DNA from: an uncultured archaeon
GTDB taxonomy: Archaea > Asgardarchaeota > Jordiarchaeia > Jordiarchaeales > Jordiarchaeaceae
Reading direction: 5' to 3'
NCBI GenBank assembly: GCA_964510585.1
Contig: CAZECW010000076.1
Coordinates: 29,884 to 61,883, forward strand
DNA length: 32,000 nt
The notes under the pieces are model-generated. The model saw nothing but the letters and a program-made list of their open reading frames with translations. It did no database searches and was not told the origin of the DNA. Both the position numbers and the translations under genes were made by a program. This document shows, piece after piece, positions 13,912 to 32,000 of the stretch; position 1 is the first letter of the stretch, and every line of letters starts with the position of its first letter.

Positions 13912-14204
13912 CAGATTCCTCCTAAAAGGTGTATTCACCATCACAGTTAGATACTTATTTAAGAGAAATAAAAATTGACATCCAATAATTAATTTCGACA
14001 TTTTAGTTAATAAGTTCATTGGAAACCGTGTTATACTCAGAAACTTTAGCGAAGCTTTAGGAGCATTCTTTTCTGTGGCGCTCCTTTAACGAAAAAGAGT
14101 AAAAAGGCAGATTGCACATCTGTTTTTATCCAAAAATTCTTACAAACATTATCATAGTGAGAAAATCTCACTTTTCTAAAATGACAAAAAATAAAAACTT
14201 ACTC

Positions 14205-16724: not shown

Positions 16725-17207
16725 TTCTTGATACCTCTTATGAATGGAGAGTAGCTAAGAACAATACTATTCTTGATGTAAGCCTTCTTAATAACTAATC
16801 TGTAGCGTCATTCGGCCAACGGTAAATAGAAGTGAAGATAAAAAGAGATTGTAGTAAAATCCTATAAACCTTTTGATTAAATTTTAATGGATATAAAAAC
16901 AGGATGTTTAATATTGACTCATGAATTTTTGTTTTGTTCGTGGCTGACGATGCCATCAACTTTTTTCAACTTTCTCCACAAAAGTTTAACATGAAAACGT
17001 TAAAAACTAATCTAGTAGAAGAAAAAGAGAAGCAAAATATTTCCAGTCCACACAACAACATGGCCATGCACCAAGGAGCCTTCATTGGACTTATGGCTCC
17101 TATCCGCTCATTAAGCTTGGGAGTTTTTTATCGCCACAGTACTAGAACACAATCTTATTTAGGTCTATTTGGAATGATGCTGATAAGCGTCTGCTCAGTA
17201 ATCTTTT

Positions 17208-18836: not shown

Positions 18837-19037
18837 TTTTCTTCCACCTCAATCTGAAAAGCGTGGTTCCAACCGCTTCATCAAATATTTATTTTTGGTT
18901 CTGCACTTTTTGATATATTAAGCCTTTTCCTTATGGTTTGCATTTCTTTAAATTATGCAGCTCTCACTTGTACAAATCGGGCTCCGGGGAATATGTATGT
19001 ATCATCTGAAGAGGAGGTTTAGTGTAGTTTTTGGTCA

Positions 19038-20057
19038 TTAGTATTTTCTTAAAATAGGATGTTTCTCTGTTCCTAACCAAAGTGATATTTCAAAGCTTTT
19101 CTTGAGCATTCTTTTCTGTATTTCTTGATCCGGCACTTTTCTAGCAGATTGAACCTTTTTTCTCCTCTTTAAACTCTCTCGGAGGTTAACAATGTTCCAT
19201 ATAAATGCTTTGGGGATAGCCAGCTTTTCATTTCTTTTGCCTCGCAAAAATAACCACATAAATTTTAAAGTCTTTATCATTAGGTATTTTGGCAGAATAA
19301 AAATTAAAGTTTTTAAAGAATAATTTTTTAGCAGGGTGCAAAACCAATTTCTCTCCAAAAGGTATACTATGGGAACAAACTTGCGGGACGCTTGCCACTC
19401 ATGATATACGATGCTTTGAGGAACATAATTAATATTATAGCCCAAAAGTCTGGCTCTCCAGCACCAATCTAAATCCTCACCATACATAAGGTATCGTTCA
19501 TCGAAGCCACCCACCTTTTCCCATAGGGATCTTCTTATTACCATAACGGTACCTGTAGAGTAAAAAGGTTCATCGATTTTGTCATACTGCCCGTTATCAA
19601 GTTCCCCGTTTCCCCTGTTCCACCCAACGCCATAGATATCACAACTGCCTCCCGCAGAGTTTATCCTCCTTTTGTCATGTAAAAACTTGATTTTGCATGT
19701 TGCAACCATTGTATTGTCATTAGCCTCTACCAATACATCCATTAAATGTTTTAACCAGTTCTTATCGACCTCAACATCATTGTTGAGAAGTGCGACGAAT
19801 TCCGAAACTAAACTGTTAATAACTTGGTTATAGGCTGCTGCCAATCCTATATTACGGCCCATTTCAACAAGTTTTATCAAGGGATAATGTTCCCTAATGA
19901 ACTCTATCGATCCGTCTGTGGAACCATTATCTACGACAAATATTTCAAAATCAGGGTAATCTGTTTTTTCTACTGATTCTAAGCAACGTTTTAATAGGGA
20001 CTTACCATTGAAATTAAGAATTAGGATGTCAACATGCGGATATTTTCTTCGCTTCAT
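19038..20057 (-). CDS. GT2 family glycosyltransferase (WbbL/rhamnosyltransferase-like)
   Basis: ILNFNG, VVDNGSTDGS, LLNND, GGFDERYLMYGEDLDWCWRA; likely ATG 20057 (MKRRKYP) rather than 20120. Confidence 0.9.
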   Translation of the reverse strand: MKRRKYPHVDILILNFNGKSLLKRCLESVEKTDYPDFEIFVVDNGSTDGSIEFIREHYPLIKLVEMGRNIGLAAAYNQVINSLVSEFVALLNNDVEVDKNWLKHLMDVLVEANDNTMVATCKIKFLHDKRRINSAGGSCDIYGVGWNRGNGELDNGQYDKIDEPFYSTGTVMVIRRSLWEKVGGFDERYLMYGEDLDWCWRARLLGYNINYVPQSIVYHEWQASRKFVPIVYLLERNWFCTLLKNYSLKTLIFILPKYLMIKTLKFMWLFLRGKRNEKLAIPKAFIWNIVNLRESLKRRKKVQSARKVPDQEIQKRMLKKSFEISLWLGTEKHPILRKY

Positions 20058-20211
20058 CCCGATTACCAAGCAGAGATTTACTGTTAAAGGTGACTGCAAG
20101 TACTTTTTACAAATCTGCAAAAGGTTAAAACAAAATTATTAGTCTTTAATTATTCCAATTTTTGATTCTTGCAGGCCTTTTCATTTGTATACCATGGATT
20201 TTTTACGGTTA

Positions 20212-20964
20212 TCAAGATTTAGAATTTTTTAGCAGAGTTTCTTTTAGGAGCATTTTTATGAAGGATGAGAATTCTTTTCTTCCTAATTTGGATTTGCCAT
20301 ACGCTCTTTCTCTAAAAACAATGGGTATCTCTTTTATAGTTAGATTGCGTTCTTTGGCTCTCTGGAGCATTTCTACCTGAAAATCATAACTATTACATCT
20401 AACATGAGGGAGAATTTCTTCTAGAGCTTCTCTTCTATAGGCCCGGAAACCAGAAGTGTTATCTTTTACTCCAAGTCTAAGTAAAACATTGACCAACATA
20501 TTTGCCACAAAGCTCACCATCCTCCTAGCAAAGTCCCAGCCGATGATCCTACCATTCCGCACATATCTCGATCCTATAACAATATCAATACCACTCGCAC
20601 ACTCCCGAAATATGTAGGGCACGTCTGAGGGGGCGTGAGAAAAATCGGCGTCCATCTCCATTATGACCCTTCCACTAACCGCTTTAAAACCCGCCTTATA
20701 AGCATAACCTAAACCATTTTTTACCTTCCGCTCTAGTATTCGAATGTTATCAAACTTCTCCATGTACTTCCGAACAACATTAGCCGTGCCATCAGGACTG
20801 TTATCATCAACTACAAGTATTTCACCATCAATTCCATACTCTTTAAAGACCTTCTCAATCTCAGATATTAAAGGCCCAATATTCTCCGACTCATTGTAAG
20901 TAGGAATAACGATAGAGAGATCCCTCTCTTTCTCTCTTCTCAGAATTTTTGACACATACATCAT
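20212..20964 (-). CDS. Polyprenol/dolichol-phosphate hexose synthase (DPM1-like GT2)
   Basis: SIVIPTYNESENI, VVDDNSPDGTA, MDADFSHAP, GSRYV, KDNTSGFRAYRRE, FRERAYGKSKL; no C-terminal TM segment. Confidence 0.88.
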   Translation of the reverse strand: MMYVSKILRREKERDLSIVIPTYNESENIGPLISEIEKVFKEYGIDGEILVVDDNSPDGTANVVRKYMEKFDNIRILERKVKNGLGYAYKAGFKAVSGRVIMEMDADFSHAPSDVPYIFRECASGIDIVIGSRYVRNGRIIGWDFARRMVSFVANMLVNVLLRLGVKDNTSGFRAYRREALEEILPHVRCNSYDFQVEMLQRAKERNLTIKEIPIVFRERAYGKSKLGRKEFSSFIKMLLKETLLKNSKS

Positions 20965-21464
20965 CTCAACTGCAAGTTATTAACGCAGCATTAAGAGCAT
21001 CAATAGGAAAGTTAATTGTAATTAAAGACATAGTAACAATTTAAGTTTTATGGGAATAAGCATTCTAAAACACAAATTAAATTACATTTGGGGAACACCA
21101 TCGAACAAAGAAGTTACTTATTGTTTTTCAGTTTCAAATGGAGCTTAACGCAGATTCGCAGAAATAGGGGAAAAGTCGCTAGGAACCTATAAGGAATTTA
21201 ACAATTCTACAAAAAATCTCCCCTCCAGTATATAGCGCCATTGAAAACAAGTTTTTGGCAAGTGGAAGCCATGTCCTTGCCTGTTTCTACTTCACCGGTC
21301 ATAAATGTTTAGCTCTCCGACTGACCGATGTGCGTCGGTTTCGCCCCGTACAATTGATGTAAGGGAAAGATGAACGTTATTTTGAATGTGTTCAAGATGC
21401 ACGTAAATTACTGCGACCCTAAATCTGAGGAGCACTGATTTGGTTTTGGGTTTTGTAGAATATT

Positions 21465-22298
21465 TTAAGACTGTTTAGTTGCTGGTTTGGGTTGTTTTTG
21501 GTTGGTTTTTTCGATTATTTTTCCTTTGGATTTGGTTATTTTTTCTTCTAATTCCTTTTTTGCAGTTTGAACGACGACGTCAGCATTTTTTCCTCTTGCT
21601 GACAGGTATATTTGTGCTGTGATTTTTTGGTCTCTTTGGGGCTGGCTTTTTATCCATACTTGGGAGTATTTTTCTCTCACTTGGTCTATTAGGGGCGAGA
21701 GGTCTGATTCTATCAGTCCTTCTGTTGTTATGCATTCTTCTGCATATTGTTCTTTGGCAGTTTCTTTAAGGAGGGGAACTAAATGTTTTTCAAAGAGGGC
21801 TTTTACTTCTTGGGGGAATCCGGGTAGGCTTACTATTTTTGTTTCTCCAATCTGTACCATTGTCGCTGGTGCCAGTCCCACGGGATTTAGGAATATCTGG
21901 CTGCCTCTGGGTACGTAAGCCAACTTTTTCCTTTCCTCGGTCATTTCTTTGTGCTTTGCTCTTCCCATCTGATATATAAGTTCAAATTTCTTTTTCAAGT
22001 CCTCAAAAAGTTCCTGATTTACCTCAAGAGGCTGGTTTACAGCACTGGCAAGGGCTTTTAGCGTCATATCATCGTATGTTGAACCCAAGCCTCCAGTTGT
22101 TATCACGAAGTCAGATTTCCTGCTTACTGCTTCCCTCAGTACTGAAATTATAATTTCTAAGTCGTCAGGTATTATGGTTACACGTTTTACTTCAAGTCCC
22201 AATGCTGTTGCCTGGCTGCAAATATAGTGGCTGTTTGTATCTTGAACCCTTCCCGCTAACACCTCATTCCCAATAACTATAATTTCCATGCTAGTCAT
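21465..22298 (-). CDS. CinA-like molybdopterin-binding (MoCF_biosynth) domain protein, no PncC domain
   Basis: IIVIGNEVLAGRVQDTNSHY, TTGGLGSTYDDMT, NPVGLAPA, LPGFPQEV. Confidence 0.85.
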   Translation of the reverse strand: MTSMEIIVIGNEVLAGRVQDTNSHYICSQATALGLEVKRVTIIPDDLEIIISVLREAVSRKSDFVITTGGLGSTYDDMTLKALASAVNQPLEVNQELFEDLKKKFELIYQMGRAKHKEMTEERKKLAYVPRGSQIFLNPVGLAPATMVQIGETKIVSLPGFPQEVKALFEKHLVPLLKETAKEQYAEECITTEGLIESDLSPLIDQVREKYSQVWIKSQPQRDQKITAQIYLSARGKNADVVVQTAKKELEEKITKSKGKIIEKTNQKQPKPATKQS

Positions 22299-22579: not shown

Positions 22580-22930
22580 TCATACCCTTTTTTGAGTTTT
22601 TAATTCTTTGATTCTTTTCTTTATCAGGATTTCTTCAGTTACCAGTTCCTGGTATAGGACTCGTCTTTTAGCCGGTTCTGAGTCTTCGCGAAATATTTCG
22701 GTTAAAACTCTGCCGTCCATCTCCCTCGGCACGGGAACGTTGAATAGGTGCAGTATGGTGGGGGCGAGGTCGTAGATTTTTACGTCTCCGATTTTTCCAC
22801 AGTTCTTGATGTCTGGGCCGCATGCCAGGAATACTCCGTGAAGCTTGTGATAAGCGGACCAAACCCTATTCTCATAGTCCCAAACACTCCTCATCAAACT
22901 ATCATAAACACGGTAACCCTCACTCGGTAT
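22580..22930 (-). repeat. Copy 1 of a 351-nt direct repeat (3' end of AlkP paralogs)
   Basis: Manual alignment to 30889-31239 (offset 8309): about 15 mismatches in 351 nt, with two identical runs of about 100 nt. Confidence 0.92.
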
Positions 22931-24160
22931 AACCACTAAATCTGGAGCAAAACCCAAGTGCTCACCATAGTATATCTCTTCCTTCTTCTTAACATCAGCT
23001 ACTAGGTACTCCCCAGTCTTGGGATCTTTTATCATTTTTATTTCTTTGATTAGTTTCAATCGTAGCTTCTCATATTCTTCACGATTGAGATTCGGATTTA
23101 GAAATATTCCACATTCACCCACGTTGATAGCCTTGGTCTTTGCCCAGTCTGCTTGATTCAGTAAATTGGAGCTTTCTCTAGAGCTTATCTTTAAAAGGAG
23201 ACGGATTAAATTTTTTCGAGACATCAGTCGACTAAGTCCACCTAGCCTCAATCTGCTGAGGGATTGTGCTGTTTTTCTAGTATATAACCTGAATTTAGTT
23301 AAGAGTACATTAGTGAGGGATAAGTTGAGGTATCCTTTCTCTAGGAGCCACGTGTTTAGGTAAAAAGTTGCCTTCACACCGGTGAACCCGTGATCAGAGA
23401 TTATCAAAATGTTAGTGTTCTCCTTGAGCGAGGCTATTAAATTTCCTATCTCTTTATCAATTGTTTTCCAAATTTTTTCGATTACCTGCCCAAATTTTTC
23501 ATCTTTGGTTTCCATCTCTTTCCAAAAAAAGTGTTGTATGACATCAGTATAAAAGAGGGTCAGTTGAATAAAGTCTGGTGCATAAAGTTCAATTAAATAT
23601 TTAGCTGCTTTGAACCTCTTTTTTATGAGCTCTTCCACCTCCTGACCCAGTACGCTTCTATTAGATAATAATTGTTTGGGTTCAAGACTGTAGGCACTGG
23701 GGTTTATCCTATAACCAAATTTTTCAACTAAATCCTTTTTCAAACCCTTTGGAAAAGTATAATCTGAAGAATCAAACATAGGAGGACCAGAAACTGTAAA
23801 GCCCCTAATCACTCTTGGAGTTGAGAGAGGAAGGTTCATGATCCCAGAGGTTAAACCATACTCTCCTAGGTAATCCCAAATTTCTGGACTTCTAAAGGGG
23901 ATGCGTGTATTAACTCTTAACTCGAGATTTTTAATATCAAATGTACACCAACCAAATAAACCCAGCTTTCCCGGGTTTTTACCTGTAGAATAAGATTTCC
24001 AAGCGGGGGAGGAAAGGAATGGAACGGTGCTTTCTAAATTTGCCCACACGCCCTTCTCTATAAGCTGTTTAAATGTGGGAAGCCTTCCCTGTTCAACCAA
24101 TGGGAAAATTACGTTCCAGGTAGCCCCATCAATACCTATTACTAAGACCTTCAAATCCAA
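22580..24160 (-). CDS. AlkP-superfamily (NPP/type I phosphodiesterase fold, COG3379-like) protein, long form, Ser nucleophile
   Basis: VIGIDG, STVPFLSSPAW...TGKNPGKLG, TDVIQH, ISDHG, SAYH, IYDLAPTILHL...MDGR; TTG start after GGTG; no signal peptide. Confidence 0.9.
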   Translation of the reverse strand: MDLKVLVIGIDGATWNVIFPLVEQGRLPTFKQLIEKGVWANLESTVPFLSSPAWKSYSTGKNPGKLGLFGWCTFDIKNLELRVNTRIPFRSPEIWDYLGEYGLTSGIMNLPLSTPRVIRGFTVSGPPMFDSSDYTFPKGLKKDLVEKFGYRINPSAYSLEPKQLLSNRSVLGQEVEELIKKRFKAAKYLIELYAPDFIQLTLFYTDVIQHFFWKEMETKDEKFGQVIEKIWKTIDKEIGNLIASLKENTNILIISDHGFTGVKATFYLNTWLLEKGYLNLSLTNVLLTKFRLYTRKTAQSLSRLRLGGLSRLMSRKNLIRLLLKISSRESSNLLNQADWAKTKAINVGECGIFLNPNLNREEYEKLRLKLIKEIKMIKDPKTGEYLVADVKKKEEIYYGEHLGFAPDLVVIPSEGYRVYDSLMRSVWDYENRVWSAYHKLHGVFLACGPDIKNCGKIGDVKIYDLAPTILHLFNVPVPREMDGRVLTEIFREDSEPAKRRVLYQELVTEEILIKKRIKELKTQKRV

Positions 24161-24309
24161 ACACCATAAGTATAGCTAAAAATGAATTACAAATGTTTCA
24201 CTAAGCTGTTTCCCAATAGTTTAAGGAGTTTAAAAAATCTTTGTGTTGGGGCGTTTTATAGAATTATTGGCAAGAAAGCCCTTCAGATTTTTAGTCCAAT
24301 GACATCAAG

Positions 24310-24560
24310 TCCAAATTCTTTTCTTGCGGTATTTCAGTTTCCGGCTTGTTAGCTTCTTCCTCTCAACTACCCGAACAGATGGATGTCTGCCCATACCTAA
24401 ACAGTTAACTCAACTCATCCACCACTTCTCATCCACCACTATCTCGGGGGACTTGTCCAAGTTTATCAAGATTCATGATGTGGTCTACGAGTGCGGGTAC
24501 GAGACCGCCTTGTTTATGTTATTTATACTTGAGATTCTTACTTCTACCCTCCTCTACAAC
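24310..24560 (-). pseudogene. Degenerate IS66-like transposase fragment
   Basis: One stop-riddled frame reads RISSINNINKAVS...*...ILINLDKSPEIVVDEKWW...NC, resembling the IS66-family IS-x-TI-x-N...L-x2-SP-x3-DET-x-W segment. No terminal repeats seen. Confidence 0.3.
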
Positions 24561-24980
24561 CTTTTCCTCAACAACAAAACCTACATGTGCTGCGCTTCTT
24601 AGACAAACCCCTATACGCTGAAAGCATTTAAGGTGAAATATGAAAAAAGTTTTAATAGCAAATAAAAAATTTGCATTACCTTTGTGGAGCGCTATAATTG
24701 CAGAAAGAAGGGGTATAATCTGTGGAGAATACAAAAATTTGGGGGGTATAAAAGCTACGCGTTTACATATGAGTACTTATTATTACTCTCATCTAATTTT
24801 ACGAAGTACACATATTTCTGCTGCCGCAAAAATAAAAAGTATTATGCATATGACGAAAAATATGAGGGCAAAAGTTACTACAGTTATTGTAGGTAATACA
24901 CAGAGTATGGAAGAGGTGCATAAGAACATCTCGCGGAGGAGCGTTATTTTTCTAGGAGAATATACCCTTCTATGCTGTTA

Positions 24981-25994
24981 TTATTTCATTTGTATCGTTG
25001 CGTGGTCTCCAACGTTTAGCTCTAAAGGTGTCCCTTTGACTATGGCTTCGTCTCCAACTAGAGTGTTGGTTAAGTTGGTGTTCTCGATTTGTACGTGTGA
25101 ACCAATTATAGTGTTTGTTATTATTGAGTTCATTATTCTTGTGCATTCGGCCACTGATACATGTGGCCCTATTACAGAGTTTTCTATCTGACATTCCTCT
25201 GCTATTGCTACTGGCGGGATTATTACACTGTTTATTGGTTCGCTATGTGTGAGTTTTATGTTGTTGTTGTGTTTTTCTTGGAGTATGATTCGGTTTGCTT
25301 CAAGTAGAGTGTCTTTTCTTCCACAATCGTACCAATGTTCAACTTTGAAGGTTTTGAGGCGGGCCTTCCAATCAATCATTTTTTGCAGAGCGTCTGTTAA
25401 TTGGTACTCACCTGTTTGAGGTTCTTCTTCAATTATTTGTTCCAAGGCTTTGTAGAGTAGGGGTGTGTCATTTATAATATAGACTCCTGATATTGCAAGA
25501 TTTGACAGGGGTACTGCGGGTTTTTCGATGAGTTGGGTGATGTTCCCATTTTTTATCTTTACGTTTCCGTAGTGTTGGGGTTGGTCCACTTCCTTTACTC
25601 CTATTGAGGCTGCGCATTCCCCATTTTTCTGGTGTTTTTGAAGCATATCCTCATAGGTCTGGAGAAATATCATATCTCCGAGAATGATTAAAAGTGGCTG
25701 ATCTATTGCTTGTTCCTTTGCTACATACACTGCATGCCCTAGTCCCAGTCGGGGCTCTTGCTCAACAAATGTGAATTTAAAGTGGTCTGAGTAGTTCTTC
25801 TGCAGGTATTCTGTGATTTGCTCCTTCATGTACCCCAGGATTACTATCACTTCCTGGATTTTGGTTGTTTTCAAATTGTCTAGAATGTGCCCTATGAGGG
25901 GTTTATCTGCTACGCGGAGCAAGGATTTTGGTTTCGTATTTGTTTGAGGCCTTAAGCGAGTACCACGCCCCGCAGCAGGTATTAAAGCCCTCAA
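24981..25994 (-). CDS. Sugar-phosphate nucleotidyltransferase (long-form glucose-1-phosphate thymidylyltransferase type)
   Basis: ALIPAAGRGTRLRPQTNTKPK, EQEPRLGLGHAV, LGD, LIEKP, GEYQLTDAL, WYDCG and C-terminal hexapeptide region; TTG start. Confidence 0.92.
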   Translation of the reverse strand: MRALIPAAGRGTRLRPQTNTKPKSLLRVADKPLIGHILDNLKTTKIQEVIVILGYMKEQITEYLQKNYSDHFKFTFVEQEPRLGLGHAVYVAKEQAIDQPLLIILGDMIFLQTYEDMLQKHQKNGECAASIGVKEVDQPQHYGNVKIKNGNITQLIEKPAVPLSNLAISGVYIINDTPLLYKALEQIIEEEPQTGEYQLTDALQKMIDWKARLKTFKVEHWYDCGRKDTLLEANRIILQEKHNNNIKLTHSEPINSVIIPPVAIAEECQIENSVIGPHVSVAECTRIMNSIITNTIIGSHVQIENTNLTNTLVGDEAIVKGTPLELNVGDHATIQMK

Positions 25995-26376
25995 CCTTCT
26001 ACACCCTTGTTTCTACTAGTTAGAAAGCTTTTGTAGAAATTCTGTTAAGAGGAGTTAATAAATTATTTGCCACAACCTCATACGAGTATAGTCTTTTATA
26101 AGCCTCTTAATGTTGAGGCTAAAGTGGTAAACATAAGAATTGGATTATTAAGACCCACTCTTGAGACACGAATCCCTCAAAAATACTGGAGTTTTGTTTG
26201 CTTTACTGTAAACACTTTTCTCAAACATTCTTGAAAAATGGTGTTTAGAAGTTTAAATCCATAAAAGCTAGAGTCTGCTGATGTCTTGAAGGATGTGGAG
26301 GGAAAAGGGAAGGAGAAACACTTTTTGAGATGAGTTTCAGAAATATGGGGTTGTAAACTTTAGTGAACCGCATCAT

Positions 26377-26925
26377 CTATGAGGTATTTTCAATTTTTGG
26401 TGGAATGTATCCTAAGTCCTCCAGTTTTTTGAGTATTTTGTTAACGTTTTCTTCTATGGTATCTTTGTATGTGTCAACTATGACTTCCGGGTTTAGCGGT
26501 TCCTCGTATGGGTCTTGGATTCCTGTTAGGTCGGTTATTTCGCCCTTTAGTGCCTTTTTGTAGAGACCTTTTGGGTCTCTTTTTATGCATTCTTCTAGGG
26601 GGCATTTTACCCAGACCTCAACAAAGTTTCCTATCAGGTTTCTGGCATGTTCACGGAAGTTTCTTAAGGGTGAGATTAAGCCCACTATTACGGCTACTCC
26701 GTTTCTAACCAATAGTTTGGTTACATATGCTACTCTTTTCGCGTGGGTTTCTCTATCCTCTATGGTAAATCCTAGGTCTGGGCTGAGATTTTTTCTAACC
26801 TCATCTCCATCAAGAACTTCAACATTTAGGCCCCTTTCTCTTAGAACCTTTTCTAGGGCCAGTGCTATGGTGGTTTTTCCTGACGCAGGTAATCCTGTGA
26901 GCCAGACAGCGAAACCACTCCTCAT
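26377..26925 (-). CDS. cysC: Adenylyl-sulfate (APS) kinase
   Basis: WLTGLPASGKTT P-loop, LDGDEVRKNL, ISP, RDPKGLYKKA, TGIQDPYEEP; ATG 26925 after GGTGA (alternative GTG 26934 overlaps the AlkP stop). Confidence 0.96.
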   Translation of the reverse strand: MRSGFAVWLTGLPASGKTTIALALEKVLRERGLNVEVLDGDEVRKNLSPDLGFTIEDRETHAKRVAYVTKLLVRNGVAVIVGLISPLRNFREHARNLIGNFVEVWVKCPLEECIKRDPKGLYKKALKGEITDLTGIQDPYEEPLNPEVIVDTYKDTIEENVNKILKKLEDLGYIPPKIENTS

Positions 26926-26930
26926 AAAAC

Positions 26931-28307
26931 TCACCAATTTATTATTTTGCCTCGCATCTCTTTTGGAACTGGTATTCCTAGTATGTTTAGAACAGTGGGA
27001 GCAACATCAAGAATATTGATGTTTCTGAGTTCTAAGCCTGAATTTTTTGTGGGATCGTAGAGTATAAATATTCCATACTCGGAGTGTACCGCGTCATCTG
27101 GTCCAGTATCGTTTTCTGATAAGTATAGGGTTTCATACCCGATTGTTCCCGCTGATCTCCAGTATAGGTCATCAAAGTATACTATTAAATCAGGAGAATC
27201 ACCGTTAAGTTCCTCATATATTTCTTCTGGCTTGTAGATCTTGTTGTAGAACTTTTCCCCGTTGGGTCCCTGAATCTGTTTTAATTTATCTGCTAATTCG
27301 TCTAATGTTTTTTCGTAGTCCTCCGGTGTCACTGTTCCTTGTGGTTCTCTTCCCTCTACATTTATGAATATTCGGGCGTAGTAGCCTCCCCATCCCCAAG
27401 CCTTAGTTTGGGCCCAATCAATTGGCGTATCTTCTATCTTTGCACCTCTTTCAGGATTGCCTTTTATTTTTAGGTAGCCTTCCTGCATCAGCCATTGATT
27501 AATACAAAAGGCCCCCTTCATTTGTTTAGCTCCATGGTCAGACACAACCAGAATTATGGTATCATTATCAAGGAGTCCAAGTAAATCGCCTATCTCCTTA
27601 TCTAGGTACCTGTAATATTCCCTAATCACGTTCTCATATTTGTTGTTGGGAACATATTTCAAGTGCTCCTTATCGAAAAACTTCCAGAAGGCATGATGTA
27701 TCCTATCCAAACCAATTTCCACAAAGGCAAAAAGGTCCCAACCCCCTTTTTGTATTAGATATTTTATCACCCGGAAGTGCTGTTCAGTCATCTCATATAT
27801 TCTTTCCAAGACTTGGTCTCTTTCTTCTGCTCTGAACTCAACATCAAATATGTATTTTCCAAATTTTGCTTCCAACTCATTTTTTAGCTCTTTAGGATAG
27901 GTGTAATCCTTCTCAGCGTCGGGAGTGATGAAACAGGAGATTAGACACCCATTAACCGGTTTCGGCGGGTAGCTAGGGGGAACCCCCACTATACAGGATT
28001 TAAGGCCTTTTTCTGAGAGTATGTCCCATATAGTTTTGTGCTTTATAGATTTGGAGTTTGCTATCCACGTTTCATACGAGTAACTTTTTTTGTGTCTAAA
28101 CCCATACAGCCCCAGAGTCCCAGGATCCCTGCTGGTCATCATAACCATCCAAGCGGGAATGGTTATGGGGGGTATGCATGACTTTAGCTTACCGTAGACC
28201 CCGTGGCTCAGCATCTTTTTAATATTGGGTAGGTCGTCTAGAAACTTTTCAAAAACCAGTTCTGGCGCCGCACAGTCTAATCCTACTATTAACACCTTTT
28301 TTGGCAT
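26931..28307 (-). CDS. AlkP-superfamily (COG3379-like) protein, short form, Thr nucleophile
   Basis: IVGLDC, SCIPPITIPAW...TSRDPGTLG, LDRIHH, VSDHG, DAVH, ILDVAPTVL...MRGK; no signal peptide; ends right after MRGK. Confidence 0.9.
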   Translation of the reverse strand: MPKKVLIVGLDCAAPELVFEKFLDDLPNIKKMLSHGVYGKLKSCIPPITIPAWMVMMTSRDPGTLGLYGFRHKKSYSYETWIANSKSIKHKTIWDILSEKGLKSCIVGVPPSYPPKPVNGCLISCFITPDAEKDYTYPKELKNELEAKFGKYIFDVEFRAEERDQVLERIYEMTEQHFRVIKYLIQKGGWDLFAFVEIGLDRIHHAFWKFFDKEHLKYVPNNKYENVIREYYRYLDKEIGDLLGLLDNDTIILVVSDHGAKQMKGAFCINQWLMQEGYLKIKGNPERGAKIEDTPIDWAQTKAWGWGGYYARIFINVEGREPQGTVTPEDYEKTLDELADKLKQIQGPNGEKFYNKIYKPEEIYEELNGDSPDLIVYFDDLYWRSAGTIGYETLYLSENDTGPDDAVHSEYGIFILYDPTKNSGLELRNINILDVAPTVLNILGIPVPKEMRGKIINW

Positions 28308-28309
28308 GT

Positions 28310-29359
28310 TTACTTGCCTCCTCCTAACCTCCTTAGTAATAGTTCCAGAAGTTTTTCTGTTTCGCTTTTAGGCACCACAGCTGCAAAAACTTCTTCTTTA
28401 CCCCCCGCTTCGTATCCCAAATTGTTGGCAAAATTGATTAGTTCTTGGGAGCAAAAAAGTTTATTCCCGCTTCTCATATACACCTGATCTCTGTCCGGAA
28501 ACCAGCCCCTATTTATTACAACCACTATGCTGTCATTGTTTTTCCAAGCCAGCCGCCTCGTGACAGTAGATGTTACATTGTAGGGGGTGTTTATATCCCA
28601 GATTAGAATCTTACCTTCTCTGCGGGTAGGTGGTCTACTGGTTTGTTTTTCTACCTCTTTTCTTAGAACTTTAAGATTATTGTTCCATAAAGGGTTTTCC
28701 AAAATTATTTGTGGATCATTTTGCAGTAGTGTGAATGGTGCTTTGAGAACCCCCCTTCTGTCTCCAACTTTATAGTTGGTGTCTATTAGCTCCACCATTC
28801 TGAGAAGATCGTTGAAGGAAAGCCCCGATTCCTCGAGGTATTCCTCTATCGTTATGTAAACTTCTCTTTTATCTTTGAGTTTAGTTTCGTGGTCGGCTAC
28901 AGCACCCAACACCGCAGGAAGGGTTACCGGATTATTTAGATAGCAGTTTAAAAACCAGGAGGCTGAGGGATATTTTTCACCATTGTTTCCTTCGATTAGG
29001 GGGTTGAAGTGGTGTATTTCTTCTATTTTTTCTTGAATGTGGTGGTCGAAGTAGAAAACTTCTGCTTTGGAATGTTCTTTGAGTTTGAGAATGTTGTTTT
29101 TGGGAAGGTTTATGTCTACTATGATTATGAACTGGCAATTTTTTGAGCTTATTTTCTCAATTTCATCGTCGCTAAGACGATAATTCCCAATAGGGGGAGT
29201 GTAATTCTCAATAGCAAATTTGTTCTTCTCTTTTCTAAGGTACTGCAGTAGTAAAGCCGCTGAGGAAATGCCGTCTGTGTCCCAGTGATGAATTATCAAT
29301 CCTTCGTCATAGTTCTTAACGCTTTCAAGCTCTAGTTCATCGCTTTTGAAAGAAAACAT
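28310..29359 (-). CDS. DHH-family phosphoesterase (candidate PAP 3'-phosphatase)
   Basis: HHWDTDG, VDIN, FDHH, YPSAS, LGAVAD; DHHA1-like end AGGKEEVFAA; ATG directly after the sat stop. Confidence 0.85.
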   Translation of the reverse strand: MFSFKSDELELESVKNYDEGLIIHHWDTDGISSAALLLQYLRKEKNKFAIENYTPPIGNYRLSDDEIEKISSKNCQFIIIVDINLPKNNILKLKEHSKAEVFYFDHHIQEKIEEIHHFNPLIEGNNGEKYPSASWFLNCYLNNPVTLPAVLGAVADHETKLKDKREVYITIEEYLEESGLSFNDLLRMVELIDTNYKVGDRRGVLKAPFTLLQNDPQIILENPLWNNNLKVLRKEVEKQTSRPPTRREGKILIWDINTPYNVTSTVTRRLAWKNNDSIVVVINRGWFPDRDQVYMRSGNKLFCSQELINFANNLGYEAGGKEEVFAAVVPKSETEKLLELLLRRLGGGK

Positions 29360-30505
29360 TTAGGTTTCACCTACAAAGGGATTTCTGAAGCGCAGGATTA
29401 TGTCGGCTACTTCTGGTCGCATCATTTCCTCTGGTGGTCTCTGTCCTTTGATGAGCATTTCGCGGATTTTTGTTCCGCTGAATTTTATGTGCTGTTCTTC
29501 TCCGTGGGGGCAAGTTTTCTCATTTACAACCCCACCGCATTTTTTGCAGTAGTAGAACGCTTTGAAGAATAGGGGAATTATTCCCAAGTCTGGAAACTCG
29601 TCGAAAATGTCTTGCGCGGCGTATGGAGGGTAGAAGTCACCCACTCCTGCATGATCCCTTCCCACTATGAAGTGGGTGCACCCAAAGTTTTTCCTCACGA
29701 TAGCGTGAAATATTGCTTCTCGGGGCCCCGCGTATCTCATTTCGAAGGGTAGAATGCTTATGACGGCGCGGTCTTTTAGATAGTAGTGTTTTATCAGAGC
29801 ATTGTAGGCTTCCAGTATTACTTCGTCCCGAAAGTCGCCGGTCTTCTTTTTTCCGATGACGGGATTAATGAACACTCCGTCGACAAAGGTTAAAGCTGTC
29901 TTTTGAACATATTCGTGCCCCAAATGAGGCGCGTTCCTAGTTTGGAATCCGACTATTGTTCTCCACCCTTTCTCCTTAAATAGAATCCTGGTTTCTACTG
30001 GCTTTAGATTATATTTTGAAAAAGGGGTTTTCATTTCAGTTATTAGATCAATCTTCCCACCCAAAAGGCGTTCTCCCATACTATTGACCTTCGCCACGCC
30101 TGGGTGTTTAGCGTCCAGGGTCCCATAGACTTTCTGAGCAAATTCCCTTTTATCATATTTGTACACATCCTCGACACGCATTAGTGCCAGAGTCCCCTTC
30201 TCGTATGAGAGAGTGATTGTATCTCCCGCCCTTACTTCAAAGTTATTTGGAATATCTAAGACTATTGGTAGTGTCCAAGGCAAATCGTTGGCTAATCTCT
30301 TTTCGTCTAGTACACTATGATAATCCTCCTCCAGAAGGAAGCCCTCCAGAGGACTGAAGACGCCCCTAGCTATGTTCTCCACATCTTTAGCCAGTCCTTC
30401 ATTAATATTTATAGTGGATAGTTCGCCTACCTGTTCTAGAAGTCTTTCTTTTTCACGCTCCGGTATTTCCCGGTTTACCAGTTTTCCACCGTGGGGCTTG
30501 GGCAT
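29360..30505 (-). CDS. sat: Sulfate adenylyltransferase (ATP sulfurylase)
   Basis: MPKPHGGKLV, FSPLEGF, FQTRNAPHLGHE, MRYAGPREAIFHAIVRKNFGCTHFIVGRDHAG, FSGTKIREML. Confidence 0.97.
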   Translation of the reverse strand: MPKPHGGKLVNREIPEREKERLLEQVGELSTININEGLAKDVENIARGVFSPLEGFLLEEDYHSVLDEKRLANDLPWTLPIVLDIPNNFEVRAGDTITLSYEKGTLALMRVEDVYKYDKREFAQKVYGTLDAKHPGVAKVNSMGERLLGGKIDLITEMKTPFSKYNLKPVETRILFKEKGWRTIVGFQTRNAPHLGHEYVQKTALTFVDGVFINPVIGKKKTGDFRDEVILEAYNALIKHYYLKDRAVISILPFEMRYAGPREAIFHAIVRKNFGCTHFIVGRDHAGVGDFYPPYAAQDIFDEFPDLGIIPLFFKAFYYCKKCGGVVNEKTCPHGEEQHIKFSGTKIREMLIKGQRPPEEMMRPEVADIILRFRNPFVGET

Positions 30506-30533
30506 AAACAGAACCTTCCCAATTTATAAGGAG

Positions 30534-30767
30534 TTAGCCGAGGTAACCTAGGGCTCTAAGCCGCTCCTTTACTCTCTCCTCATCCTCTTTGCTGAAGGGT
30601 TCTCCTTCTTCCTCTTCTTCCTCAGCCACAATTTCCCGAAGCACATATGTTACATAGCTTGAAACCGAGGTAAAACCGGTGCCCTTTATTCTTTCCTGAA
30701 CCTTTTTAAATAGAGGTGTAGGTATAGAAACGGTGGTAAATTTTTTATCCTTCTTGGGCAAATCCAA
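30534..30767 (-). CDS. CopG/ribbon-helix-helix regulator with acidic linker and C-terminal RLRALGY helix
   Basis: FTTVSIPTPLFKKVQERIKGTGFTSVSSYVTYVLREIV (RHH), EEEEEEG linker, EDEERVKERLRALGYLG tail; TTG start after GGGTG. Confidence 0.85.
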   Translation of the reverse strand: MDLPKKDKKFTTVSIPTPLFKKVQERIKGTGFTSVSSYVTYVLREIVAEEEEEEGEPFSKEDEERVKERLRALGYLG

Positions 30768-30778
30768 ACACCCTGTAA

Positions 30779-30792
30779 TTAATTATAATTAA
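30779..30792. promoter_or_regulatory. 14-bp perfect palindrome, candidate operator of the RHH-sat operon
   Basis: TTAATTATAATTAA, 12 nt upstream of the RHH start, over the expected transcription start. Confidence 0.35.
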
Positions 30793-30809
30793 CAATAATA
30801 GTTCAGCCC

Positions 30810-30825
30810 ATTAAAAACCTTTACT
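30810..30825 (-). promoter_or_regulatory. Putative BRE/TATA promoter of the RHH-sat-DHH-AlkP-cysC operon
   Basis: Minus strand AGTAAAGG-TTTTTAAT about 45 nt upstream of the start codon. Confidence 0.35.
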
Positions 30826-30888
30826 AATCAAAAAATTTTGAACTTAAAGAAGCATTTAGAAGGATTACGACGAGCCTCAATCTATGAC

Positions 30889-31239
30889 CTATACCTTTTT
30901 TTGGATTTTTAATTCTTTGATTCTTTTCTTTATCAGGATTTCTTCAGTTACCAGTTCCTGGTATAGGACTTGTCTTTTAGCTGGTTCTGAGTCTTCGCGA
31001 AATATTTCTTTTAGGACCCTGCCGTCCATCTCCCTCGGCACGGGAACGTTGAATAGGTGCAGTATGGTGGGGGCGAGGTCGTAGATTTTTACGTCTCCGA
31101 TTTTTCCACAGTTCTTGATGTCTGGACCGCATGCTAGAAATACTCCGTGAAGCTTGTGATAAGCGGACCAAACCCTATTCTCATAGTCCCAAACACTCCT
31201 CATCAAACTATCATAAACACGGTAACCCTCACTCGGTAT
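30889..31239 (-). repeat. Copy 2 of the 351-nt direct repeat
   Basis: About 96% identical to 22580-22930 by manual comparison. Confidence 0.92.
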
Positions 31240-32000
31240 TACTATCAGGTCTGGCGACAATTCCAGATGTTCCCCATGGTAAATTTCCTCCTTTCTTTTA
31301 ACGTCAGAGACCGGATTTTCCCCTGTTTTTGGATTTTTTATCGTTTTTATTTCTTTGATTAGTAGCGTCCTTAGTGTTTCGTAATCTTTTTGGTTAAGTT
31401 CTGGGTTTAAGAATACCCCACATTCTCCGACACAAATGGCTTTAGTTGAGCCCCAGTCCACTTGCCATATTAGCTCCGGGCTTGAAACCTCTGGTGGAAG
31501 AATCTTCTGCTGGAGACTCATTAATTTTTCTGGAGGTATTATTCTTCTCACCATTTTATCCAGGCCTAATTGGCGTACAACATGTAATATTTTCTTATTG
31601 AATAGTCGGAGCCTGCTTAGTAATATGTTAAAAAGGGACAGATTCAAATATCCATTCTCCAAAAACCAGTTATTCAGGCAGAAGGTTGCCTTTAAGCTTG
31701 TAAAGCCATGATCGGAAATAATTAAAATATTAGTATCTTCTCCAACTTCTTCAAGAAGTTTTCCTATTTCTGAATCAATCATCTTCCAAATATTTTCAAT
31801 GACTCTACCAAACCGTTCATCCTCTGTTTCCATTTCTTTCCAGAAAAAGTGTTGCACCGCATCGGTGTAAAAAAGGGTTAGTTGAACAAAATCAGGCGAG
31901 TAAAGTTTGATTAGGTATTTGGTTACTTCGAATCTCTTTTTAATAAGCTCCTCCACTTCTGAGACAAACCTATCTTTTCTAGCCAATTGGTGCTGCGGAT
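30889..32000 (-). CDS. AlkP-superfamily (COG3379-like) protein, long form, 5'-truncated by the window edge
   Basis: Frame is open beyond the track's TTG at 31986 to position 32000 (PQHQLARKDR...); TDAVQH, ISDHG, SAYH; close paralog of 22580-24160. Confidence 0.9.
   Translation of the reverse strand, partial: PQHQLARKDRFVSEVEELIKKRFEVTKYLIKLYSPDFVQLTLFYTDAVQHFFWKEMETEDERFGRVIENIWKMIDSEIGKLLEEVGEDTNILIISDHGFTSLKATFCLNNWFLENGYLNLSLFNILLSRLRLFNKKILHVVRQLGLDKMVRRIIPPEKLMSLQQKILPPEVSSPELIWQVDWGSTKAICVGECGVFLNPELNQKDYETLRTLLIKEIKTIKNPKTGENPVSDVKRKEEIYHGEHLELSPDLIVIPSEGYRVYDSLMRSVWDYENRVWSAYHKLHGVFLACGPDIKNCGKIGDVKIYDLAPTILHLFNVPVPREMDGRVLKEIFREDSEPAKRQVLYQELVTEEILIKKRIKELKIQKKV

What the first reader, a model, noticed from the sequence alone, without database searches (positions are those of the whole stretch)
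22580..32000. Candidate non-canonical sulfation system: PAPS synthesis wired to three AlkP-fold enzymes inside a glycan locus
Seen: sat and cysC sit in a tightly coupled operon (RHH-sat-DHH-AlkP-cysC, with gaps of 0-28 nt or overlaps). Two more AlkP paralogs flank it, co-oriented with a nucleotidyltransferase, two GT2, a GT-C and a flippase. All AlkP copies whose N-terminus is visible lack signal peptides. The window has no PAPS reductase (cysH), sulfite reductase, aprAB or P-loop sulfotransferase. Known: Sat plus CysC make PAPS, the universal sulfuryl donor, and other AlkP-superfamily members (LtaS, EptA, OpgB/MdoB) are transferases working through a Ser/Thr covalent intermediate. From memory, and to be verified, some haloarchaeal glycan-sulfation genes (e.g. 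Haloferax agl7) carry AlkP/sulfatase-type annotations. Inference: these AlkP proteins act as PAPS-dependent sulfotransferases that sulfate a lipid-linked or nucleotide sugar for a surface glycan. That would be a sulfotransferase class unrelated to the P-loop family, here in a probable Asgard archaeon.
Basis: partly seen in the sequence, partly recalled or inferred. Interest (0 to 1): 0.85.

Follow-up and report, generated by a model that had tools for sequence, protein, structure and literature searches.

The report
Known PAPS cassette inside glycan locus
This Asgard archaeon carries a five-gene cassette, already described in Thermococcus and Pyrococcus, that makes the activated-sulfate donor PAPS. 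The cassette's own alkaline-phosphatase-type gene matches a measured pyrophosphatase, not a new sulfotransferase. The enzyme that uses the PAPS is still unidentified, and the two flanking paralogs are only candidates.

Summary
RHH-sat-DHH-AlkP-cysC is a tightly packed minus-strand operon. Two more PF01663 paralogs and glycan genes flank it. The genome (96% complete) shows no P-loop sulfotransferase, CysH-type reductase or sulfite reductase.

The operon is the sulfate-activation cassette already published for Thermococcus onnurineus (TON_1704-1707) and Pyrococcus yayanosii (pych_17520-17560). The operon AlkP is 55-59% identical to, and in the same position as, TON_1705/PYCH_17550. TON_1705 was measured as an inorganic pyrophosphatase (kcat 2.1 s-1, Km 18.8 uM). 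The DHH gene is a homolog of the solved PAP phosphatase 8A8K.

This AlkP orthogroup is bound to the cassette: cysC is adjacent in 64 of 80 loci, CysC is present in 50 of 50 genomes and Sat in 48 of 50. The family of the two flanking paralogs is not bound to it (CysC in 20 of 50 genomes).

The flanking paralogs remain the best local candidates for the missing sulfotransferase. Alkaline-phosphatase-superfamily glycan sulfotransferases are already published (Agl30/Agl31, 2025), so that idea is no longer a new class.

This scan has noted the same cassette many times on other DNA.

The parts
30534..30767 (-). CopG/RHH-type regulator of the cassette. Its acidic linker ends in the C-terminal tail EERVKERLRALGYLG.
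   Evidence: It has no Pfam hit. Homologs lie upstream of sat in 41 of 80 loci. PMC8268124 calls the positional equivalent pych_17520 a putative copG transcription factor. The tail is shown.
29360..30505 (-). ATP sulfurylase (Sat): PUA_2 domain plus ATP-sulfurylase domain.
   Evidence: PF01747 at 317 bits and PF14306 at 166 bits. It is 61% identical to the T. onnurineus copy and 60% to the P. yayanosii copy.
28310..29359 (-). DHH-family PAP (3'-phosphoadenosine 5'-phosphate) phosphatase.
   Evidence: PF01368 at 38 bits. Full-length match to the M. thermolithotrophicus PAP phosphatase 8A8K, E 5.3e-40 (PMC10322725). It is 32-35% identical to the TON_1706 and PYCH_17540 positional equivalents.
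26931..28307 (-). AlkP2: a cytoplasmic NPP-fold enzyme and ortholog of TON_1705/PYCH_17550. It is most likely a low-Km inorganic pyrophosphatase that pulls the ATP sulfurylase reaction.
   Evidence: PF01663 at 176 bits. About 60% identical across archaea and bacteria. CysC lies directly downstream in 64 of 80 loci and Sat directly upstream in 57 of 80. 55-59% identity to the Thermococcales orthologs in the same position. Best fold matches are ENPP1/3/6 and Xanthomonas NPP. Natural AlkP-CysC fusion P0076.
26377..26937 (-). APS kinase (CysC), with the C-terminal tail ILKKLEDLGYI.
   Evidence: PF01583 at 198 bits. The tail is shown. 24 of 47 cassette CysC proteins carry the tail.
24981..25994 (-). 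Sugar-1-phosphate nucleotidylyltransferase (RmlA-long/GlmU-like). It lies 382 nt downstream of cysC.
   Evidence: PF00483 at 140 bits. TIGR01208 at 240 bits, below its cut-off of 320. It is conserved after cysC in Jordarchaeia loci L087, L088 and L091.
22580..24160 (-). AlkP1: a cytoplasmic COG3379/PF01663 paralog with a Ser at the nucleophile position (SSPAW), a helical insert and the C-terminal helix KKRIKELKTQKRV. Candidate glycan-modifying enzyme, possibly a sulfotransferase; function unproven.
   Evidence: PF01663 at 138 bits. Only about 28% identical to AlkP2. The family is about 40% identical outside the order. Model pLDDT 83.
30889..31998 (-). AlkP3: a second AlkP1-type paralog whose N-terminus is cut by the contig end. 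P0123 (533 aa), a protein 70% identical to AlkP1 and taken here as its full-length counterpart (no direct alignment to AlkP3 was run), stands on the same 50.8-kb contig as P0121.
   Evidence: PF01663 at 62 bits on the partial protein. Contig end shown. P0123.
15357..22298 (-). Co-oriented glycan genes: Wzx-type flippase, DUF2079 membrane protein, two GT2 glycosyltransferases and a CinA-like protein.
   Evidence: PF01943, PF09852 (205 bits), PF00535 twice and PF00994.

Best explanation
The operon at 26377-30767 is the archaeal sulfate-activation cassette already described in Thermococcales.

Shown or inferred by homology:
- Sat makes APS and PPi.
- The NPP-fold protein AlkP2 hydrolyses PPi, which pulls the unfavourable Sat equilibrium. 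This rests on orthology to TON_1705, for which pyrophosphatase activity was published.
- CysC phosphorylates APS to PAPS.
- The DHH enzyme removes the inhibitory by-product PAP. This rests on homology to a solved and assayed enzyme.
- The CopG/RHH protein regulates the unit.

Inferred from context:
- This genome has no sulfite reductase, no CysH-type reductase and no P-loop sulfotransferase, and the cassette is embedded in a co-oriented glycan locus. The PAPS therefore most likely feeds sulfation of a surface glycan.
- The transferase itself is not identified.
- The two flanking COG3379-type paralogs (AlkP1, AlkP3) are the best local candidates, at roughly 35-40%. They are not established as sulfotransferases.
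For: 1. Same genes in the same order as TON_1707-1704 (PMC4463584) and pych_17520-17560 (PMC8268124).
2. A genome whose single contig is 1,847,607 bp carries RHH-Sat-DHH-AlkP2-CysC at 1.570-1.575 Mb, and a 1,716,818-bp genome carries it at 1.565-1.569 Mb. AlkP2 identity is 55% and 59% over about 455 residues.
3. TON_1705 is listed as a pyrophosphatase with pH optimum 9.5, kcat 2.1 s-1, Km 18.8 uM and kcat/Km 1.1e5 M-1 s-1 (PMC9653972, Table 1, citing Lee et al. 2009).
4. AlkP2 is as conserved as Sat and CysC, about 55-63% across domains. That fits a universal small substrate rather than variable glycan acceptors.
5. Among 50 genomes with AlkP2, CysC is present in 50 and Sat-type sulfurylase in 48.
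6. The fold is NPP-type, that is, pyrophosphate and phosphodiester bond cleavage.
7. The DHH protein matches 8A8K at E 5e-40.
8. In T. onnurineus the cassette is followed by TauE and a flippase, and a convergent canonical sulfotransferase lies beyond them (PF00685 57 bits, PF13469 51 bits). The cassette therefore works as a PAPS supply for a separate transferase.
9. The own genome has no reductive route and no P-loop sulfotransferase.
Against: - The primary paper on TON_1705 (Lee et al. 2009, J Bacteriol 191:3415) is not held. I saw only its title and numbers quoted by others.
- PMC8268124 calls the pyrophosphatase role of PYCH_17550 speculation.
- A kcat of 2.1 s-1 is about 10,000 times slower than the housekeeping PPase Ton1914 of the same organism (PMC9653972). 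Alkaline-phosphatase-superfamily enzymes are known to be promiscuous, so the measured activity might not be the native one.
- AlkP2 is adjacent to, and sometimes fused with, CysC (64 of 80 loci; P0076) more often than it is adjacent to Sat (57 of 80). A helper of Sat would not obviously show that pattern.
- 22 of 50 cassette genomes have neither a PF00685/PF13469 sulfotransferase nor a NIR_SIR sulfite reductase, so a PAPS consumer is missing there.
The tool gave no names.
Confidence: 0.6

Rival explanations
1. The flanking paralogs AlkP1 and AlkP3, but not AlkP2, are NPP-fold sulfotransferases. They would take the sulfuryl group from PAPS (or APS) onto their Ser/Thr nucleophile and pass it to a lipid-linked or nucleotide sugar. 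This adds to the best explanation rather than excluding it.
For: - The genome has no P-loop sulfotransferase.
- The paralogs flank the cassette throughout Jordarchaeia (L087-L092).
- Extra AlkP paralogs lie within 10 kb of the cassette in about 12 of 80 distant loci, and sulfatase-like genes in 5.
- Comparing gene positions: next to cassette-TauE-flippase, T. onnurineus has a canonical sulfotransferase and P. yayanosii has an AlkP1-like gene plus a GT2. Methanocaldococcus sp. 16A has an AlkP1-like gene plus a PF00884-like gene.
- Alkaline-phosphatase-superfamily sulfotransferases exist: Agl30 and Agl31 (PMC11980604).
- Some accessory paralogs share the LGY tail with the cassette's RHH and CysC.
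- GT2 genes lie near AlkP1-like genes in 22 of 80 loci.
Against: - The family is not tied to sulfate activation. Only 20 of 50 genomes with an AlkP1-like gene have an APS kinase and 14 of 51 have a Sat-type sulfurylase. That is about the rate in the 14 control genomes.
- Small candidate-phyla bacterial genomes with AlkP1-like genes lack both.
- Outside Jordarchaeia, only 1 of 74 AlkP1-like loci has sat/cysC nearby.
- The closest folds are phosphodiesterases, not the sulfatases that Agl30/31 resemble.
- There are no biochemical data.
Confidence: 0.35
2. AlkP2 itself is the PAPS-consuming enzyme, a new NPP-fold sulfotransferase with a conserved small acceptor. The pyrophosphatase activity measured for TON_1705 would then be a side activity.
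For: - 22 of 50 cassette genomes lack any P-loop sulfotransferase or sulfite reductase.
- One of them (G056) has AlkP2 as its only PF01663 or PF00884 protein.
- AlkP2 is tightly adjacent to, and recurrently fused with, CysC, the PAPS producer. Evidence: P0076 and open frames of 635-704 aa at the AlkP2 hit in seven Thermococcaceae genomes.
- The kcat for PPi is low (PMC9653972).
- Nucleotide-sugar genes often follow cysC: an SDR epimerase/dehydratase in 30 of 80 loci and UGDH in 14.
Against: - The ortholog has a measured PPi activity with a Km of 18.8 uM and kcat/Km of 1e5, which is in the range of native activities.
- T. onnurineus has a canonical sulfotransferase beside the cassette.
- Nearly all genomes that lack a consumer carry other alkaline-phosphatase-superfamily paralogs that could be the transferase.
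- An NPP-type pocket places the alpha-phosphate, not the sulfate, of a bound nucleotide at the nucleophile. This is inference from the family's known mechanism.
- G056 is a metagenome-assembled genome of unknown completeness.
Confidence: 0.13
3. The cassette serves assimilatory sulfate reduction through unrecognised reductases, and sits next to glycan genes by chance.
For: - PMC4463584 and PMC8268124 describe the cluster as part of sulfate assimilation.
- M. thermolithotrophicus uses atypical PAPS and sulfite reductases (PMC10322725).
- The genome has a PUA-PAPS_reduct-Fer4 protein.
- 16 of 50 cassette genomes do have NIR_SIR proteins.
Against: - There is no NIR_SIR domain protein in a 96% complete genome, and all known sulfite reductases, including Fsr, carry one.
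- The PAPS_reduct protein belongs to PRK13795, carries a PUA RNA-binding domain and scores far below the CysH cut-offs.
- The glycan context recurs in distant lineages: a flippase and a sulfotransferase or AlkP paralogs in Thermococcales and Methanocaldococcus, and SDR/UGDH genes in Aminicenantes.
Confidence: 0.07

Closest known systems
Sulfate-activation cluster of Thermococcus onnurineus NA1: TON_1704 APS kinase, TON_1705 pyrophosphatase, TON_1706 PAP phosphatase, TON_1707 ATP sulfurylase (Lee et al. 2009, as cited in PMC4463584 and PMC9653972)
   Same: Same five genes in the same order, including the upstream RHH with an identical type of tail. AlkP2 is 55% identical, Sat 61%, CysC 57% and DHH 32%. 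The cluster also sits beside a flippase and sugar-modifying genes.
   Different: T. onnurineus has a canonical P-loop sulfotransferase about 3 kb from cysC and a TauE gene directly after it. The window has neither, and instead has two COG3379 paralogs flanking the cassette. Here the host is an Asgard archaeon without any sulfite reductase.
Pyrococcus yayanosii CH1 cluster pych_17520-17560: CopG, ATP sulfurylase, DHH pApase (structure solved), type I phosphodiesterase/nucleotide pyrophosphatase, APS kinase (PMC8268124)
   Same: Identical architecture, with AlkP2 59% identical. An AlkP1-like paralog (33% identity, similar C-terminal helix) and a GT2 lie 3 kb beyond cysC. The authors likewise found no sulfotransferase or sulfite-to-sulfide enzyme in that organism.
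   Different: TauE and a flippase lie between cysC and the paralog. There is only one flanking paralog. The pyrophosphatase role of PYCH_17550 is stated there as speculation.
Sulfate-assimilation locus of Methanothermococcus thermolithotrophicus: ATPS, APSK, DHH-type PAP phosphatase 8A8K, APS-reductase-like PAPS reductase, Fsr (PMC10322725)
   Same: The DHH PAP phosphatase is homologous over its full length (E 5e-40). Sat and APS kinase are present.
   Different: That pathway ends in reduction to sulfide, and that paper does not mention an alkaline phosphatase. The window's genome lacks any sulfite reductase.
Agl30 (VNG1056C) and Agl31 (VNG1057C), N-glycan sulfotransferases of Halobacterium salinarum (PMC11980604)
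   Same: They are alkaline-phosphatase-like core superfamily proteins encoded in a glycan locus. One of them is soluble and cytosolic. Deletion and heterologous expression show they are needed and sufficient for glycan sulfation. They set the precedent that this superfamily can supply sulfotransferases.
   Different: They are sulfatase-like: their best structural matches are the sulfatases 5G2U and 6HHM. AlkP1-3 are NPP-like, with best matches ENPP1/3/6/7, and score below the PF00884 cut-off. The paper passages read here do not name a sulfate donor. Most haloarchaeal genomes tested here lacked an APS kinase.
Nucleotide pyrophosphatase/phosphodiesterases: Xanthomonas NPP 2GSN, ENPP1/3/6
   Same: Same fold (TM about 0.55-0.6, probability 1.0) and PF01663 membership. 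Asp, His and Thr residues that are invariant in the family alignment line up with the NPP metal-ligand and nucleophile positions (alignment A1).
   Different: Only 13-18% identical. AlkP2 is cytoplasmic rather than secreted. It has a TIPAW motif and large family-specific conserved blocks (WGWGGYYARIF, ENDTGPDDAVH). Its reported substrate is PPi rather than nucleotides.

Membership tests
Thermococcales-type sulfate-activation cassette (TON_1704-1707 / pych_17520-17560) | Gene content and order: CopG/RHH, ATP sulfurylase, DHH PAP phosphatase, PF01663 protein, APS kinase, co-oriented and tightly spaced. | tested here: met
   Searches show gaps of 28, 0 and 2 nt and a 7-nt overlap. The same order is found in L179 and L180 and in the published descriptions (PMC4463584, PMC8268124).
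Thermococcales-type sulfate-activation cassette (TON_1704-1707 / pych_17520-17560) | The PF01663 member is orthologous to TON_1705/PYCH_17550. | tested here: met
   55% and 59% identity over about 455 residues, in the same position. There is a single hit at E <= 1e-100 per genome in 62 of 97 Thermococcaceae genomes.
Thermococcales-type sulfate-activation cassette (TON_1704-1707 / pych_17520-17560) | The PF01663 member hydrolyses PPi, and the DHH member hydrolyses PAP. | not testable with these tools
   Only literature values for the orthologs are available (PMC9653972 Table 1; PMC8268124; PMC10322725).
NPP clade of the alkaline phosphatase superfamily (PF01663) | Pfam model above its gathering score, and an NPP-type fold. 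| tested here: met
   AlkP2 scores 176 bits, AlkP1 138 and AlkP3 (partial) 62, against a cut-off of 23. Foldseek gives ENPP and Xanthomonas NPP at probability 1.0.
NPP clade of the alkaline phosphatase superfamily (PF01663) | Bimetal ligand set plus a Thr/Ser nucleophile. | tested here: met
   Invariant in A1: D11, T49, D201, H205, D257, H258, H408. Invariant or nearly invariant in A2: D11, T/S50, D206, H210, D256, H257, H438. These residues were assigned to ligand roles from the alignment pattern, not from a superposed structure.
P-loop PAPS-dependent sulfotransferases (PF00685, PF13469 and relatives) | A match to a sulfotransferase Pfam model. | tested here: not met
   No protein in the window matches one. 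None is found in the genome.
Formylglycine sulfatases (PF00884) | PF00884 above its cut-off, and a C/S-x-P-x-R maturation motif at the nucleophile. | tested here: not met
   AlkP2 scores 23.3 bits on PF00884, below the cut-off of 25. AlkP1 and AlkP3 have no hit. The motifs are T-I-P-A-W and S-S-P-A-W, with Trp in place of Arg.
Agl30/Agl31-type alkaline-phosphatase-superfamily glycan sulfotransferases | Sulfatase-like fold, with closest structures 5G2U and 6HHM, as in PMC11980604. | tested here: not met
   The best matches of both models are ENPPs. 6HHM appears only as a weak sequence hit of profile A1 (E 0.0011).
Agl30/Agl31-type alkaline-phosphatase-superfamily glycan sulfotransferases | A genetic requirement for glycan sulfation. 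| not testable with these tools
   This needs deletion or expression experiments plus mass spectrometry.

The most novel reading that the evidence does not exclude
Cytoplasmic NPP-fold (COG3379/PF01663) enzymes are sulfotransferases that work through a covalent sulfo-Ser/Thr intermediate. This would apply to the flanking AlkP1/AlkP3 type and conceivably to AlkP2 as well. A shared C-terminal docking tail would wire them to the PAPS cassette. The tail, (E)E-x-[IV]-K-x-R-L-[KR]-x-L-G-Y, is carried by the cassette's regulator, by CysC and by accessory alkaline-phosphatase-fold paralogs. That would make a second alkaline-phosphatase-superfamily route to glycan sulfation, distinct from the sulfatase-like Agl30/31.
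Probability: 0.3. Interest if true: 0.75.

Novelty: new member of a known kind. Interest (0 to 1): 0.4.

Why it matters
The cassette supplies PAPS in hundreds of archaeal and bacterial species. In the search of one genome per species, 590 encoded a relative of AlkP2.

In about 44% of the 50 genomes sampled, including this Asgard genome, no known PAPS consumer is detectable. What these organisms sulfate, and with which enzyme, is an open question. The P. yayanosii authors raised the same question.

Assigning the operon AlkP to the published pyrophosphatase removes a false lead. It narrows the search to the accessory alkaline-phosphatase-fold paralogs and to the proteins that carry the tail.

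If the flanking paralogs prove to be sulfotransferases, that would extend the 2025 haloarchaeal precedent to a different fold branch and to Asgard surface glycans.

Tried and rejected
1. Agl7 precedent. The papers held say only that Agl7 (HVO_2046) contributes to sulfation of DolP-hexose. Its annotation table is not held. AGL7 did not appear among the top 30 Swiss-Prot fold matches of either model. An attempt to locate it among unnamed Haloferax genomes was inconclusive.

2. Complex prediction of AlkP2 with CysC gave no verdict (score 0.00). This is no evidence either way.

3. The primary TON_1705 paper could not be read.

4. Literature searches for COG3379, and for AlkP together with sulfotransferase, PAPS and archaea, found nothing relevant.

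5. I considered the PUA-PAPS_reduct-Fer4 protein as a PAPS reductase and rejected it. It belongs to family PRK13795, scores far below the CysH cut-offs, and the genome has no sulfite reductase.

6. I considered the genome's one PF00884 protein (contig C90) as an Agl31-like candidate. It lies among corrinoid methyltransferase genes, with no glycan or sulfate context.

7. I considered the LGY tail as a docking peptide specific for AlkP2 or Sat and weakened that idea. AlkP1-like proteins in most haloarchaeal loci examined carry the tail, although nearly all of those genomes tested lack an APS kinase.

8. NCBIfam has no named model for AlkP1 or AlkP2.

Full report
**What is there**

All genes from 15357 to the window end lie on the minus strand. 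Pfam assigns them as follows:

| Gene | Coordinates | Assignment |
|---|---|---|
| AlkP3 | 30889-31998 | partial PF01663 protein |
| RHH | 30534-30767 | 77-aa protein, no Pfam hit |
| Sat | 29360-30505 | ATP sulfurylase |
| DHH | 28310-29359 | DHH protein |
| AlkP2 | 26931-28307 | PF01663, 176 bits |
| CysC | 26377-26937 | APS kinase |
| NTP transferase | 24981-25994 | sugar-1-phosphate nucleotidylyltransferase |
| AlkP1 | 22580-24160 | PF01663, 138 bits |
| CinA-like | 21465-22298 | |
| GT2 (two genes) | 20212-20964, 19038-20120 | glycosyltransferases |
| DUF2079 | 17208-18836 | membrane protein |
| Flippase | 15357-16724 | Wzx-type |

Inside the operon the gaps are 28, 0 and 2 nt, and AlkP2 and CysC overlap by 7 nt. 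The contig ends at the window end, which is why AlkP3 is truncated. The nearest protein relatives are labelled Jordarchaeaceae/Freyarchaeota.

**What uses PAPS in this genome**

The assembly is 96% complete.
- It has no PF00685, PF13469 or PF05935.
- It has no hit to PF03567, PF17784 or PF09037 either, but those controls rang in no genome, so these three searches say nothing.
- It has no NIR_SIR sulfite reductase.
- The one strong PAPS_reduct hit is a 646-aa PUA-PAPS_reduct-ferredoxin protein of the uncharacterised family PRK13795. It scores 83 bits on the CysH model, whose cut-off is 154.

A reductive fate for PAPS is therefore unlikely. The DHH protein matches the solved PAP phosphatase of M. 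thermolithotrophicus (8A8K) over its full length at E 5e-40 (PMC10322725). Something here therefore turns PAPS into PAP.

**The operon AlkP is a conserved part of the cassette**

- AlkP2 has thousands of relatives and is about 60% identical across Bathyarchaeia, Nitrososphaeria, Asgard archaea, Archaeoglobi, Aminicenantes and others.
- A scan of one genome per species found 590 encoded relatives.
- In the best 80 loci, cysC lies directly downstream in 64, sat directly upstream in 57, the RHH gene in 41 and the DHH gene in 12. GT2 genes appear in only 4-7.
- Unbiased clustering of all neighbouring ORFs gave the same core. It also found an SDR epimerase/dehydratase in 30 loci, UDP-glucose dehydrogenase in 14, TauE in 4, sulfatase-like proteins in 5 and extra AlkP paralogs in about 12.
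- A natural AlkP-CysC fusion exists (P0076).
- Across 50 genomes with AlkP2, CysC is present in all 50 and a Sat-type sulfurylase in 48.

**The cassette is already published**

[quoted passage not shown] 2009.
- PMC8268124 describes pych_17520-17560 as CopG, ATP sulfurylase, DHH pApase, type I phosphodiesterase/nucleotide pyrophosphatase and APS kinase. It speculates that the fourth protein removes PPi.
- PMC9653972 tabulates TON_1705 with a pH optimum of 9.5, kcat 2.1 s-1, Km 18.8 uM and kcat/Km 1.1e5 M-1 s-1.

I then searched Thermococcaceae genomes. Of 97 genomes, 62 carry one AlkP2 ortholog at 55-61% identity. A genome with a single 1,847,607-bp contig has the cassette at 1.570-1.575 Mb on the minus strand. 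A 1,716,818-bp genome has it at 1.565-1.569 Mb. From memory these sizes are those of T. onnurineus NA1 and P. yayanosii CH1, and the positions fit the locus tags. AlkP2 is therefore the ortholog of an enzyme measured as a pyrophosphatase.

This reading fits several other results. The fold is NPP-type. The conservation is as high as that of Sat and CysC. ATP sulfurylase also needs PPi kept very low, a point of established thermodynamics that I did not compute here.

**The cassette does not need its AlkP as the transferase**

- In the T. onnurineus-sized genome the cassette is followed by TauE and a flippase. Beyond them lie, convergently, a canonical sulfotransferase (PF00685 57 bits, PF13469 51 bits) and sugar-modifying genes.
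- In the P. yayanosii-sized genome the corresponding position holds a 545-aa AlkP1-like protein and a GT2.
- In Methanocaldococcus sp. 16A the neighbourhood holds an AlkP1-like protein, a PF00884 sulfatase-like protein and a flippase.

The cassette is thus a PAPS supply unit beside variable glycan genes. The neighbouring position that holds a canonical sulfotransferase in one species holds alkaline-phosphatase-fold paralogs in others.

**The flanking paralogs**

AlkP1 and AlkP3 belong to a more divergent family, about 40% identical outside the order. It keeps the same ligand set and a Ser/Thr-x-P-A-W nucleophile motif.

Their family is not tied to sulfate activation:
- Outside Jordarchaeia, only 1 of 74 loci has sat/cysC nearby.
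- Only 20 of 50 genomes have an APS kinase and 14 of 51 have a Sat. That is about the rate in the tool's 14 control genomes.
- Most haloarchaea and the small candidate-phyla bacteria lack both.

In their favour:
- They recur beside the cassette in distant lineages.
- GT2 genes lie near them in 22 of 80 loci.
- 22 of 50 cassette genomes have neither a P-loop sulfotransferase nor a sulfite reductase, and nearly all of those carry other PF01663 or PF00884 paralogs.
- Agl30 and Agl31 of Hbt. salinarum were published in 2025 as alkaline-phosphatase-superfamily sulfotransferases (PMC11980604). Those two are sulfatase-like, whereas AlkP1 resembles ENPPs.

I put the sulfotransferase reading for AlkP1/AlkP3 at about 35%.

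**A shared tail**

- The RHH protein ends in EERVKERLRALGYLG, and CysC ends in ILKKLEDLGYI followed by a few more residues.
- These are the only two real genes among 14,043 ORFs of the genome with this motif in the last 25 residues.
- Across the 80 loci the motif ends 41 of 42 RHH proteins and 24 of 47 CysC proteins. It is absent from all 48 Sat proteins and from the SDR, UGDH and DHH proteins.
- It also ends three AlkP-cluster proteins, which I take to be extra paralogs rather than AlkP2 orthologs (not checked individually), and two sulfatase-like neighbours.
- AlkP1-like proteins of most haloarchaeal loci examined carry it too. Other AlkP1-like proteins, including the window's, end in a related helix, IKxLKxxGKI.

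This links the regulator, CysC and alkaline-phosphatase-fold paralogs. However, the tail also occurs in genomes without an APS kinase, so its binding partner is unknown.

**Verdict**

The operon is a new member of a known, published cassette, and its AlkP is most likely the cassette's pyrophosphatase (confidence 0.6). The idea that alkaline-phosphatase-superfamily proteins can be sulfotransferases is already in the literature. The identity of the PAPS consumer in this Asgard genome is open, and the flanking paralogs are candidates only. The scan has recorded the same cassette on many other genomes.

Noticed in passing
window 30534-30596 (RHH C-terminus) and 26377-26450 (CysC C-terminus); also loci L005-L084, L179, L180, L184: A C-terminal tail, (E)EE-x-[IV]-K-x-R-L-[KR]-x-L-G-Y-[ILV], ends 41 of 42 cassette RHH regulators and 24 of 47 CysC proteins. 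It also ends some accessory AlkP or sulfatase-like neighbours and most of the haloarchaeal AlkP1-like proteins examined. It never ends Sat, and none of the three AlkP-cluster hits looks like the AlkP2 ortholog (not checked individually). In the own genome, only RHH and CysC carry it among real genes. Its binding partner is unknown.
   Followed up: partly
G000:C72 (L001:745-2685): A 646-aa protein with PUA, PAPS_reduct and 4Fe-4S ferredoxin-like regions belongs to family PRK13795 ('hypothetical protein'). It is the only strong PAPS_reduct hit in the genome. Given its PUA domain it is more likely an RNA-modifying enzyme than a CysH.
   Followed up: partly
G000:C90:9639-11036 (L181:7639-9036): A cytoplasmic PF00884 sulfatase-like protein (142 bits) has Thr at the formylglycine position (P-T-I-P-F-R-R). 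It sits between corrinoid-binding proteins and MtaA/URO-D-like methyltransferase genes, with no glycan or sulfate context.
   Followed up: partly
P0076; Thermococcaceae hits (G088, G102, G114, G126, G130, G142, G144): P0076 (686 aa) is an AlkP2-CysC fusion protein. In seven Thermococcaceae genomes the open frame at the AlkP2 hit spans 635-704 aa, which suggests the same fusion has arisen repeatedly.
   Followed up: partly
L132, L136, L137, L145, L147, L149, L157, L158, L160 (haloarchaeal loci): Haloarchaea hold clusters of three or four AlkP1-like paralogs, often with a GT2 about 7 kb away. Yet almost all of the haloarchaeal genomes tested lack an APS kinase and a Sat-type sulfurylase. Either these proteins do something other than PAPS-dependent sulfation, or haloarchaeal sulfation uses another donor.
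   Followed up: partly
L006-L034 and others (Aminicenantes/Saccharicenans loci): In Aminicenantes the cassette is followed directly by an SDR epimerase/dehydratase and often by two UDP-glucose dehydrogenase genes. That points to a uronic-acid nucleotide sugar as part of the sulfated product in that lineage.
   Followed up: no
L179:1847-2809: The T. onnurineus-sized genome has a canonical P-loop sulfotransferase, a Polysacc_synt_2 dehydratase and a flippase next to the cassette. In that cultured organism the cassette therefore serves glycan sulfation rather than assimilation.
   Followed up: partly
window 12295-14019 (-): A 574-aa protein gives only weak, sub-threshold matches to apolipoprotein- and spectrin-like helical repeats. 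It is a long coiled-coil protein of unknown role next to a wHTH protein.
   Followed up: no
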